A stretch of 64,000 nt of DNA, from sequence record PP418985.1; one strand, given 5' to 3'. Position 1 is the first letter of the stretch; each line of letters begins with the position of its first letter. The notes under the pieces are model-generated. The model saw nothing but the letters and a program-made list of their open reading frames with translations. It was not told the origin of the DNA and did not search any database. This DNA is from Escherichia phage UPWr_E1. Positions 35,779 through 37,548 of the stretch are shown here, piece by piece. Made by a program: the position numbers and the translations under genes.

Positions 35779-37548
35779 TTATACCGGAGAAATTCCAAAG
35801 AGGAACTCTTTAATTTGTAGCGGTTGCGCTAATGCTTCTACAGATACACCCTTAATACGAATATCGATCCGGTCGCCCTTTTCAATATTTAGGAAAGCAC
35901 TGGTAGAATAACTGATTAATTCATCAGTTCCATAATGACCATTTCGTACCTCATGTACAATCTGACCATTTTTAGCAATACCAACTACTAAAGTAGCGTT
36001 ATGTGCCGCATGTACCGAACAACGGAAAACACAACGGAATAAGCCTTTGTCGTTAACCGTGACAAGAGATTCGCTCTTAACCATTCCACGCACAGGAACT
36101 TCTGCGGTCATATCGTTTAACGGGATTCCTTTGTATTGATCTTGCCCGTCGAGAGTAACATCAATCTGAGCGGTGTTTTTAAATGCACCAGCCGCCCATG
36201 CGACCTGAACCCATTCCCCGTGCTTACGTAGATAATGGAAACCATCATCAGGAACGTCTGTTACCTTGCTTGCATTTGATGTGCTCAATGCCTTAACAGT
36301 TTTCACGATCCCATCTTGTTCAAGCTGCGTGCTTCCTTCTGGATTGCCGTACATGTCGCTTGACAGCTTAATAACCCCAGCGGTTAGACCGGAATCGCGA
36401 TCGCCGATCATTTGCTCGATATCCTGCACGCTTGCTTCTAAACGCCCCTGCGTGTTTTCTACGATTTTCAGGCGACCAGCGATTGTGTGACGCTCGCTAT
36501 CCGTACCCACTGTATTTGTTATACGTGCAACTTCACCGCGTAGGCCATCTGCGCCGCTAACACCGACAATAGATTTGAGGTCCACAAATTCCCGTTCTTG
36601 ATTAGTCAATCGATAATCAATACTTCCAGCGGCTTGAGGATTGCCAATCTTATTTTCCAAAAGAGTTAACCGAGGACGAATACCAGCATCAACTCCATTG
36701 ACTTCATCATTAAGCTGAGTATAATCAGACTGCAATTTAGTTACTTTAGTACCGATATCAGGAATTGATTCAAACAGAATTGCTTTCTTTACTTCCTGAA
36801 CTTCGTTTGATATACTAGCAATATTTCGAGTGTTTGTGCGAAGACGAAGATAAACATTGTCTTGTGTTGCTAGTGATGTGTCGCCTAGCTCACTGCGCAT
36901 TTTGTTAACTTGTTTTGTTAGCTCTCCAACGTCAGAATCTTGCCAGTCGTTTTCCAATTGGCGGATTCTCTGACCGTGGTTGCTTAATGCTTCCGTATTC
37001 TGAATTACTCGATATTTGATCCCTGAACCGGAACTACCCGGTTCAGGAGAACCGTTGATATTGAAGTTAGGGAAAGCGCCTAATTCTTGTTTGATGAAAG
37101 AAATATCATCATAGATTGTTCGTGTGCTCGGATCTGCTGCCGGACGAACACCAATTTTCTTTCCGGTTTCTGCCAGTTCATCTACTGTGGTTTGTAATGT
37201 CCTTGAAGTTTCTCCTAAATTTTCTTCTACAGACTCAACCTTTGCAATAGTCTGATTGACAATATCAATAATACTACCATCAGCAACCGCGCCTAAAGTA
37301 GTTTTAATATCATTAACTGCTGTAACAACTTCGTTAACTTTTGTTACCGTTGTCTTAGAATTTTCATCCAGACGAACAATATTTTCTTGAATAGCATGAG
37401 GGGCGCGGTTAAGCGTCCCCTCATGTCCGGTTTCTGTAGTTGCTGCGCTTAGACATTCACCATTTTTAATCCAGCTAATAGAATGTTGTCCCTCTCCAGG
37501 GACACCATCGACGTTAGGGATCTTTCGAATGTTTAATTGTTCGATCAT
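35779..37548 (-). CDS. wac: Fibritin (whisker) with foldon plus an extra C-terminal domain of about 140 aa
   Basis: Coiled-coil body; foldon-like DDGFHYLRKHGEWVQV (T4: [15 protein letters not shown]); 589 aa versus 487 in T4. Confidence 0.8.
   Translation of the reverse strand: MIEQLNIRKIPNVDGVPGEGQHSISWIKNGECLSAATTETGHEGTLNRAPHAIQENIVRLDENSKTTVTKVNEVVTAVNDIKTTLGAVADGSIIDIVNQTIAKVESVEENLGETSRTLQTTVDELAETGKKIGVRPAADPSTRTIYDDISFIKQELGAFPNFNINGSPEPGSSGSGIKYRVIQNTEALSNHGQRIRQLENDWQDSDVGELTKQVNKMRSELGDTSLATQDNVYLRLRTNTRNIASISNEVQEVKKAILFESIPDIGTKVTKLQSDYTQLNDEVNGVDAGIRPRLTLLENKIGNPQAAGSIDYRLTNQEREFVDLKSIVGVSGADGLRGEVARITNTVGTDSERHTIAGRLKIVENTQGRLEASVQDIEQMIGDRDSGLTAGVIKLSSDMYGNPEGSTQLEQDGIVKTVKALSTSNASKVTDVPDDGFHYLRKHGEWVQVAWAAGAFKNTAQIDVTLDGQDQYKGIPLNDMTAEVPVRGMVKSESLVTVNDKGLFRCVFRCSVHAAHNATLVVGIAKNGQIVHEVRNGHYGTDELISYSTSAFLNIEKGDRIDIRIKGVSVEALAQPLQIKEFLFGISPV

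What the first reader, a model, noticed from the sequence alone, without database searches (positions are those of the whole stretch)
35779..36250. Fibritin (wac) carries an extra ~140-aa C-terminal domain beyond the foldon
The T4 fibritin ends at the foldon trimerisation motif. Here a foldon-like motif (DDGFHYLRKHGEWVQV) is followed by about 140 further residues with beta-rich, Cys-containing sequence (CVFRCSVHAAH). Since whiskers project from the neck, this could be an added distal sensor or adhesin domain.
Basis: partly seen in the sequence, partly recalled or inferred. Interest (0 to 1): 0.5.

Follow-up and report, generated by a model that had tools for sequence, protein, structure and literature searches.

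The report
RB49-type fibritin with C1q-like head
The neck-whisker protein of this RB49-like (Krischvirus) coliphage keeps a T4-style foldon and then adds a 140-residue globular head with a predicted C1q/TNF fold; the extra domain is real, but it is the already described "RB49-type" fibritin, so it is ordinary for this phage group, and what the head binds is still unknown.

Summary
The ORF at 35779..37548 (- strand, 589 aa) is wac/fibritin. It lies between gp12 and gp13 and aligns with T4 fibritin from residue 7 through a foldon-like motif (aa 427-449). A further 140 residues (aa 450-589) have no T4 counterpart.

It is not a frameshift artefact. All 57 Krischvirus genomes in GenBank, including RB49, JSE and Phi1, carry the same gap-free 589-aa gene, and the extension is under purifying selection (dN/dS about 0.14).

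The architecture is already published as the "RB49-type" fibritin (Letarov 2005; Letarov and Krisch 2013), whose expanded C-terminus is needed for trimer folding.

The C1q-like fold assignment and the retained foldon are small additions. The adhesin idea is plausible from the fold but unsupported: there are no hypervariable loops and no binding data.

Best reading: a trimerising distal knob on the whisker, with an unknown ligand. Novelty: already known. Interest: low.

The parts
35779..37548 (-). wac (fibritin / neck whisker) gene, 589 aa plus stop. The start ATG overlaps the gp12 stop by one base, as in RB49.
   Evidence: ORF list; T4 fibritin 2bsg E 1.6e-52; PHROG 1056 'fibritin neck whisker' E 6.5e-181; 94% nt identity to JSE wac and 76-79% to the Phi1/ECD7 group, all full length.
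37399..37548 (-). N-terminal neck-attachment domain (aa 1-50).
   Evidence: Best conserved part against T4. 54% identical to the sister-clade fibritin P0006. dN/dS 0.06. The role of this domain is taken from PMC3797505.
36271..37398 (-). Segmented coiled-coil shaft (aa 51-426).
   Evidence: Colinear alignment with the T4 fibritin shaft, aa 7-432. dN/dS 0.09 for aa 51-367. Coiled-coil character is inferred from homology with T4, not tested separately.
36199..36447 (-). Pfam Fibritin_C match (aa 368-450): the last coiled-coil segments plus the foldon.
   Evidence: PF07921, E 7.5e-25, 87.4 bits against a cut-off of 21, model positions 2-91 of 93.
36202..36270 (-). Foldon-like beta-hairpin motif, SKVTDVPDDGFHYLRKHGEWVQV (aa 427-449).
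   Evidence: Aligns to the T4 foldon [21 protein letters not shown]. The P, DG, Y, RK and GEWV positions are kept. dN/dS 0.08. 52% identical in P0006.
35782..36201 (-). Extra C-terminal domain (aa 450-589): predicted C1q/TNF-like jelly-roll head.
35752..35772 (-). GC-rich hairpin with a T-run between the wac stop and the gp13 ribosome-binding site (terminator-like).
   Evidence: Consensus scan found it, reported on the + strand. Read on the - strand it is AAAGGGGCGTTAAGCCCCTTTT. Function not tested.
37548..38951 (-). Flank: gp12 short tail fibre gene (467 aa), immediately upstream of wac.
   Evidence: ORF list. Same order as in annotated RB49 and JSE.
34800..35732 (-). Flank: gp13 neck protein gene (310 aa), immediately downstream of wac.
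   Evidence: ORF list. Annotated in RB49 and JSE as head-tail adaptor gp13. 73% identical to gp13 of L013.

Best explanation
This is the RB49-type fibritin of a Krischvirus phage. It is a trimeric coiled-coil whisker anchored to the neck by its N-terminus. It keeps a T4-like foldon hairpin and ends in a 140-residue C1q/TNF-like jelly-roll head.

Inferred mechanism: C1q/TNF heads are obligate homotrimers that nucleate trimeric stalks from the C-terminal end. The head, together with the foldon, therefore sets the register and drives folding of the whisker from its C-terminus. It ends up as a globular knob at the distal tip of each of the six whiskers.

That knob replaces the bare foldon as the surface the whisker presents to its partner. 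I consider the phage's own long tail fibres the most likely partner, for assembly assistance and retraction as in T4. A conserved host-surface ligand is the second choice.

Shown here: gene identity, the foldon-plus-extension architecture, its conservation, purifying selection, and the predicted fold. Taken from the literature: the requirement of the expanded C-terminus for folding. Inferred: the trimeric state of the head and its binding partner.
For: Identity and architecture:
- Gene order is gp11-gp12-wac-gp13-gp14-gp15.
- T4 fibritin aligns over aa 7-432, and its foldon over aa 424-449.
- Fibritin_C scores above its Pfam cut-off.
- RB49 wac is 589 aa and colinear without gaps.
- The extension occurs only as the end of wac, in 57 of 57 Krischvirus records, and in one uncultured sister-clade phage with the same gene order.

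Functional constraint:
- dN/dS is 0.14 in the head and 0.08 in the foldon, with no indels in 12 sequences.

Fold:
- The AF2 model is all-beta, mean pLDDT 70.
- Foldseek against the PDB puts Cbln1 and C1QL first, at E about 1e-5.
- BFVD returns many phage fibre proteins annotated with C1q or collagen.
- Weak but consistent Pfam hits to BclA_C and C1q.

Folding role:
- PMC3797505 states that only T4 and JS98 fibritins fold with the small foldon alone. [quoted passage not shown]

Partner:
- In T4 the C-terminal end of fibritin contacts the long tail fibre near its knee (PMC3797505).
- The head shows dispersed, low variation rather than adhesin-style hypervariable loops. That fits a conserved partner.
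Against:
- The model rests on a 3-sequence alignment. pLDDT is below 50 for the foldon and for the linker after it (model residues 28-35), and for one loop of the domain (63-68).
- Sequence matches to C1q and BclA_C are below Pfam's cut-offs.
- There is no support for long-tail-fibre docking in particular. ECD7-group phages carry a JSE-type head but RB49-type gp35 and gp36, so head alleles do not co-vary with the fibre knee genes.
- The authors of PMC9569957 suspect that the pre-adsorption fibre conformation of RB49-like phages differs from that of T4.
- The head is the fastest-diverging part of wac between sister clades: 29% identity against 42-54% elsewhere. That would also fit adaptation to an external ligand.
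Confidence: 0.6

Rival explanations
1. Accessory adhesin or lectin. The C1q/TNF-like head at the whisker tip binds a host-surface glycan or protein reversibly. This would concentrate virions at the cell surface before the long tail fibres engage. It is essentially the first reader's idea.
For: - Structural neighbours include receptor-binding heads of phage fibres: the cyanophage A4 tail fibre, the A-1(L) short tail fibre CBD, the TM4 gp23 receptor-binding domain, the lactococcal phage 1358 RBP and PRD1 P5. A Photorhabdus TNF-like lectin is also among them.
- The stem-CBD construct of the A-1(L) short tail fibre binds host cells (PMC10966104).
- Letarov and Krisch proposed accessory-adhesin roles for non-T4 fibritin modules.
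- The head is the most diverged region between sister clades.
- wac lies in a deep-allele block with gp10, gp11 and gp12.
- A 2026 preprint found LPS-sugar-predictive k-mers in the fibritin gene next to gp12.
Against: - Within Krischvirus, whose members differ widely in host range, the head has dN/dS 0.14, no indels and no hypervariable loop.
- The k-mer signal and the divergent block can be explained by physical linkage to gp12.
- O-antigen and OmpA recognition in RB49-like phages was mapped to gp38 on the long tail fibres, not to Wac (PMC9569957).
- In cyanophage A-1(L) the distal carbohydrate-binding module of the neck fibre did not bind host cells, and the isolated short-tail-fibre CBD did not either.
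- No binding data exist for this domain.
Confidence: 0.25
2. Purely structural cap. The head is only a trimerisation and stability module, a larger substitute for or helper of a weakened foldon, with no binding partner.
For: - PMC3797505 says that fibritins other than T4 and JS98, RB49 among those tested, cannot fold with the small foldon motif alone.
- C1q/TNF heads are classic C-terminal trimerisation nuclei; the matches include collagen VIII and X NC1 and BclA.
- Variation is uniformly low to moderate, with no hot spot.
Against: - The foldon motif itself is well conserved and under strong constraint: dN/dS 0.08, and 52% identity across clades. A 140-aa helper would therefore be a costly redundancy.
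- Whisker tips in T4 do have a partner.
- Exposed distal heads of this fold usually bind something.
Confidence: 0.14
3. Artefact. A frameshift or assembly error fused a downstream ORF onto wac.
For: None found. For contrast, Morganella phage MP1 shows what such a break looks like: its wac is annotated as two overlapping CDS, and a foldon-like motif is split at the junction.
Against: The same uninterrupted 1770-nt ORF is present in 57 independent Krischvirus genomes and in several metagenome contigs. Substitutions follow a codon-aware purifying pattern. A 591-aa homologue exists in a sister clade.
Confidence: 0.01

Closest known systems
RB49-type fibritin (gpwac of phage RB49, NP_891719.1 / AAP04366; also JSE and Phi1)
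   Same: Same length (589 aa) and gap-free colinearity. 78% amino-acid identity overall to RB49 and 97% to JSE. Same gp12-wac-gp13 position, and the same foldon-like motif and 140-aa head.
   Different: Only allelic differences. The window carries the JSE-group allele. Across gp10-wac this allele is 66-80% nt identical to RB49, while gp13-gp17 are 90-98% identical.
T4 fibritin (PDB 2bsg, 3j2o; foldon 1rfo)
   Same: N-terminal neck-binding domain, segmented coiled coil and foldon hairpin are homologous (E 1.6e-52; Fibritin_C 87 bits).
   Different: T4 ends a few residues after the foldon, whereas this protein adds a 140-aa jelly-roll head. According to PMC3797505, T4 folds with the foldon alone and RB49-type does not.
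C1q/TNF superfamily heads (gC1q, cerebellin-1, C1QL, Caprin-2 C1q, collagen VIII/X NC1, BclA and ExsFA of Bacillus exosporium, TNF ligands)
   Different: The stalk is an alpha-helical coiled coil plus foldon, not collagen. Sequence similarity is below Pfam's thresholds. Trimer formation and any ligand are untested.
C1q/TNF-like receptor-binding heads of phage fibres (cyanophage A-1(L) gp33 CBD 8ke9, cyanophage A4 tail fibre 9k09, TM4 gp23 9n6a, phage 1358 RBP 4l92, PRD1 P5)
   Different: Those sit on tail fibres or spikes that contact the host. This one sits on neck whiskers. Sequence identity is about 10%. No host binding has been shown here.
Other non-T4 fibritin C-terminal modules (RB43-type with Ig-like domains, JS98-type with two foldons, AehI-type with a downstream chaperone)
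   Same: Same principle: a conserved N-terminus and shaft with a swapped or expanded C-terminal module that is fixed within a phage lineage (PMC3797505).
   Different: A different fold in each type. The RB49-type head was not assigned a fold or function in the papers I could read.
Morganella phage MP1 (Gualtarvirus) fibritin
   Same: A foldon-like motif followed by a domain of about 130 aa. The BFVD model of that domain matches our model (Foldseek E 9.9e-6). Same gp12-wac-gp13 position.
   Different: No detectable sequence similarity to the Krischvirus head (BLASTP E 0.31, hhalign probability 0.2%). The gene is annotated as two overlapping CDS.

Membership tests
Fibritin (T4 wac family) | Conserved N-terminal neck-attachment domain and colinear coiled-coil shaft homologous to T4 gpwac. 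| tested here: met
   phmmer against 2bsg_A: E 1.6e-52, aa 7-432 aligned to T4 6-437. PHROG 1056, E 6.5e-181.
Fibritin (T4 wac family) | Pfam Fibritin_C (last coiled-coil segments plus foldon) above the gathering score. | tested here: met
   87.4 bits against a cut-off of 21, aa 368-450, model positions 2-91 of 93.
Fibritin (T4 wac family) | Gene located between gp12 (short tail fibre) and gp13 (neck protein). | tested here: met
   ORF order in the window. Identical order in annotated RB49 and JSE.
Fibritin (T4 wac family) | Foldon hairpin with the core residues P, DG, Y, R/K and GEW. | tested here: met
   VPDDGFHYLRKHGEWV aligned to [16 protein letters not shown]. Which residues are critical is taken from general knowledge of the T4 foldon.
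RB49-type fibritin (Letarov and Krisch 2013 classification) | C-terminal module homologous to that of RB49 gpwac. | tested here: met
   78.6% amino-acid identity over all 140 residues to RB49. Gap-free alignment of the whole protein.
RB49-type fibritin (Letarov and Krisch 2013 classification) | The expanded C-terminal domain is required for trimer folding. | not testable with these tools
   Stated in PMC3797505 for fibritins other than T4 and JS98, RB49 among those tested. The primary paper (J Bacteriol 2005, PMC545706) is not held.
C1q/TNF superfamily | Sequence match to Pfam C1q (PF00386) or BclA_C (PF18573) at the gathering score. | tested here: not met
   C1q scores 15.1-15.2 bits against 23.7. 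BclA_C scores 16.2-16.7 bits against 38. Weak hits recur in 7 of 12 and 11 of 12 homologues.
C1q/TNF superfamily | Compact beta-sandwich jelly-roll fold of about 130 aa. | tested here: met
C1q/TNF superfamily | Homotrimeric assembly with N- and C-termini at the base. | not testable with these tools
A trimer is expected, because the domain is fused to a trimeric coiled coil and foldon.
Phage receptor-binding head / adhesin | Hypervariable exposed loops or diversifying selection among phages with different hosts. | tested here: not met
   dN/dS 0.14, no indels, and substitutions dispersed over the domain.
Phage receptor-binding head / adhesin | Binding to a host-surface molecule. | not testable with these tools
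   This needs binding assays. None were found in the papers searched.

The most novel reading that the evidence does not exclude
The whisker-tip C1q/TNF-like head is a lectin-like module that reversibly binds a conserved host-surface glycan, for example LPS core or enterobacterial common antigen. Neck whiskers would then be accessory adhesins. Structurally similar heads after a foldon in other T4-like genera (the sister clade of L013, and Gualtarvirus MP1) would make this a recurrent solution among Straboviridae that has gone unrecognised.
Probability: 0.22. Interest if true: 0.55.

Novelty: already known. Interest (0 to 1): 0.2.

Why it matters
Fibritin controls whether T4-type phages deploy their long tail fibres. 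Its foldon is widely used as an engineered trimerisation tag. Krischvirus phages (RB49, JSE and relatives) are phage-therapy candidates with broad host ranges.

Knowing that their whiskers end in a C1q/TNF-like knob gives a concrete, testable handle: truncations, surface mutants and pull-downs. These could settle an open question stated in the 2013 and 2022 papers, namely whether non-T4 fibritin modules still manage the tail fibres or have become accessory adhesins.

As a genome-scan finding it is not new. The extended RB49-type C-terminus has been in the literature since 2005. The gene here is a close allele of annotated genes.

Tried and rejected
1. Frameshift or fusion artefact: rejected. 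The ORF is identical in length, without gaps, in 57 genomes, and it evolves under purifying selection.
2. Cysteines as a functional pair (disulfide or metal site): rejected. C506 and C510 are replaced by V and V in P0006, and C510 by T in JK32 and L011. They lie four residues apart on one predicted strand, which does not allow a disulfide between them (inference).
4. Finding distant sequence relatives of the head:
   - The word-indexed search returned only two 110-aa fragments.
   - The exhaustive search of 1.84 billion representatives gave only the RB49-type cluster, one 591-aa sister-clade fibritin, and two repeat proteins I regard as spurious.
5. Co-variation of head alleles with the long-tail-fibre knee genes gp35 and gp36: negative. 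The ECD7 group has a JSE-type head but RB49-type gp35 and gp36. There is effectively one independent recombination event, so the test has little power.
6. Sequence link between the Krischvirus head and the MP1 head: none.
7. The afdb50 fold library was unavailable.
8. The primary paper on gpwac diversity (J Bacteriol 2005) is not in the library. What it shows about RB49 fibritin is cited only through PMC3797505 and PMC9569957.

Full report
**What is there**

The window carries, on the minus strand, the T4-type gene run gp11 (38962-39606), gp12 (37548-38951), a 589-aa ORF (35779-37548), gp13 (34800-35732), gp14 and gp15. The 589-aa ORF is wac/fibritin:
- It matches T4 fibritin (PDB 2bsg, 487 aa) with E 1.6e-52 over aa 7-432.
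- The T4 foldon (T4 residues 455-480) aligns separately to aa 424-449.
- Pfam Fibritin_C scores 87.4 bits (cut-off 21) over aa 368-450.
- PHROG 1056, 'fibritin neck whisker', scores E 6.5e-181.

It keeps the P, DG, Y, RK and GEWV positions of the T4 foldon. T4 fibritin ends a few residues later, whereas this protein continues for 140 residues (aa 450-589; window 35782-36201). The quoted CVFRCSVHAAH is aa 506-516. The only correction is that the upper coordinate, 36250, is one base out of codon register.

**Not an artefact**

- Megablast finds the whole 1770-nt gene, full length, in 57 phage records, all Krischvirus (RB49-like). JSE, phiS and KFS-EC are 94% identical; Phi1, ECD7 and RB49 are 76-79%.
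- tblastn with the 140-aa extension alone finds the same 57 records at 77-96% amino-acid identity, always as the end of wac.
- RB49 wac (NP_891719.1) is annotated as 589 aa, sits between gp12 and gp13, and is colinear without gaps.
- Twelve wac sequences have identical length.
- Nei-Gojobori estimates of dN/dS are 0.06 (N-terminus), 0.09 (shaft), 0.31 (aa 368-424), 0.08 (foldon) and 0.14 (extension).

The extension is a constrained, functional part of the protein.

**How far the domain reaches**

An exhaustive phmmer search of 1.84 billion cluster representatives found only two real relatives. One is the RB49-type cluster. The other is a 591-aa protein, P0006.

P0006 lies on a metagenome contig with the same gp10-11-12-wac-13-14-15-16-17 order. 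Its terminase and gp13 are about 74% and 73% identical to those of Krischvirus, so it belongs to an uncultured sister clade.

Against P0006, identity by region is 54% (N-terminus), 42% (shaft), 52% (foldon) and 29% (extension). The extension is the fastest-diverging part. The two cysteines are V and V in P0006, and C510 is T in JK32 and L011. They are not a conserved functional pair.

**Fold**

An AlphaFold2 model of aa 425-589 was built from a 3-sequence alignment. Mean pLDDT is 70 and pTM 0.66. pLDDT is 75-90 over most of the domain core and below 50 for the isolated foldon, as expected for a monomer. The model is all-beta.

- Foldseek against the PDB independently ranks cerebellin-1, C1QL1/3, C1QTNF5, 4-1BBL and collagen X NC1 first (E 1.6e-5 to 3e-4).
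- Foldseek against BFVD returns many phage fibre proteins annotated with C1q or collagen repeats.
- Pfam gives sub-threshold but recurrent hits: BclA_C in 11 of 12 homologues (best E 8.5e-5) and C1q in 7 of 12 (best E 0.0049).

I conclude that the extension is a C1q/TNF-like jelly roll. This rests on a predicted model, and membership by sequence threshold is not met.

**How it most likely works**

C1q/TNF heads are obligate homotrimers that sit at the C-terminal end of trimeric stalks and nucleate their folding. This is established knowledge for gC1q, collagen VIII and X NC1, and BclA.

Letarov and Krisch (PMC3797505) state that only T4 and JS98 fibritins fold with the small foldon alone. [quoted passage not shown] Together with the fold, this gives a coherent mechanism. 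Foldon and C1q-like head trimerise first and set the register of the coiled coil. The head then forms a knob at the distal tip of each whisker.

What the knob binds is not shown. In T4 the C-terminal end of fibritin contacts the long tail fibre below the knee. By continuity of function I rank fibre docking first. A host-surface ligand comes second, and a purely structural cap third.

**Tests bearing on the partner**

- *Variation.* Variation in the head among Krischvirus is dispersed and modest, with no hypervariable loop or indel. This is unlike gp38 or gp37 tips and argues for a conserved partner.
- *Mosaic wac in the ECD7 group.* These phages carry the RB49 allele up to nt 1425 (aa 475). 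They carry the JSE allele from nt 1428 through the end of wac into early gp13, and the RB49 allele again after that.
- *Fibre knee genes.* Their gp35 and gp36 remain RB49-like (97-99% against 92.8-96.5% for JSE). Head alleles therefore do not co-vary with the fibre knee genes. This is effectively one recombination event and cannot exclude docking.
- *Linkage block.* The window differs from RB49 by 66-80% nt identity across gp10-gp11-gp12-wac, but only by 90-98% across gp13-gp17. A 2026 preprint reports LPS-sugar-predictive k-mers in Gp12 and also in the neighbouring fibritin gene. Both observations could reflect linkage to gp12 rather than a host-binding role of wac.
- *Receptor mapping.* O-antigen and OmpA recognition in RB49-like phages has been mapped to gp38 (PMC9569957).
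- *Cyanophage comparison.* In cyanophage A-1(L) the distal carbohydrate-binding module of the neck fibre did not bind host cells (PMC10966104).

**Comparison with what is known**

The gene is an allele of the published RB49-type fibritin, one of eight C-terminal forms catalogued in 2013. PMC9569957 notes that the Wac C-terminal moiety of RB49-like phages is unrelated to that of T4.

Two small refinements come out of this work. First, the foldon-like motif is retained, so only the last 140 residues are foreign to T4. Second, those residues are predicted to form a C1q/TNF-like head. No paper in the searchable library links fibritin with that fold. The primary 2005 paper could not be read.

A structurally similar head follows a foldon-like motif in Morganella phage MP1 (Gualtarvirus). 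Its wac is annotated as two overlapping CDS, and its head has no sequence similarity to the Krischvirus head. The design may be more widespread among T4-like phages than sequence searches show.

**Verdict**

The feature is already known, so interest is low (0.2). The most novel reading still open is a lectin-type accessory adhesin on the whiskers. I put that at about 0.22 probability.

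Noticed in passing
window 35779-40203 versus 31776-35732 (compared with L001 = RB49 77438-85857): Against RB49, the gp10-gp11-gp12-wac block is only 66-80% nt identical, while gp13-gp17 immediately downstream are 90-98%. wac therefore sits at the edge of a deep-allele module shared with the short tail fibre and baseplate pin genes. The boundary falls near the wac/gp13 junction.
   Followed up: partly
L004 (ECD7, NC_041936.1) 154-2902, versus L001 and L002: ECD7-group wac is a recombinant. It carries the RB49 allele up to nt 1425 (aa 475, 26 residues into the head). It carries the JSE allele from nt 1428 to about codon 150 of gp13, then the RB49 allele again. This is an exchange between alleles of the same head type within the genus. 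It can be set beside the 2013 report that swapping of fibritin C-terminal modules has ceased.
   Followed up: yes
L013 3739-5514 (ENA ERZ27260015 k141_162124): An uncultured T4-like phage (terminase 74% and gp13 73% identical to Krischvirus) encodes a 591-aa fibritin with the same foldon-plus-head architecture. Its head is only 29% identical to the window's. It is absent from the GenBank phage collection.
   Followed up: partly
L014 15608-17349 (Morganella phage MP1, KX078569.1): MP1 wac is annotated as two overlapping CDS (451 aa and 141 aa). A foldon-like motif is split across the junction (...PPEDGLTYICRQKSG / LSSEKWVPIG), which suggests a frameshift in the record or in the gene. The 141-aa piece matches our C1q-like model in BFVD (E 9.9e-6) but shows no sequence similarity.
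   Followed up: partly
window 35752-35772: A GC-rich hairpin with a T-run (AAAGGGGCGTTAAGCCCCTTTT on the - strand) lies between the wac stop codon and the gp13 ribosome-binding site. It is terminator-like by a consensus scan. MP1 has an annotated rho-independent terminator at the equivalent spot.
   Followed up: partly
BFVD hits of model mb751ded8011f: The top BFVD hit is an unnamed 594-aa viral protein (A0A7S9SPP9, 22% identity over 185 columns), possibly another fibritin with this architecture. A 159-aa protein of Klebsiella phage KPV15 also matches. Neither was examined.
   Followed up: no
L009 5001-5495 (IMGVR_UViG_3300045988_033703): A 150-kb IMG/VR contig encodes aa 425-589 identically to the window, but its wac differs from the window's at the nucleotide level. 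It is a very close relative rather than the same sequence.
   Followed up: no
database behaviour: The word-indexed protein search returned only two 110-aa fragments (ORFs called from an internal Met) and one short Fibritin_C fragment. It returned no full-length Krischvirus fibritin, although these exist in the representative library (P0003). The apparent rarity of the domain in that search is a tool effect.
   Followed up: yes
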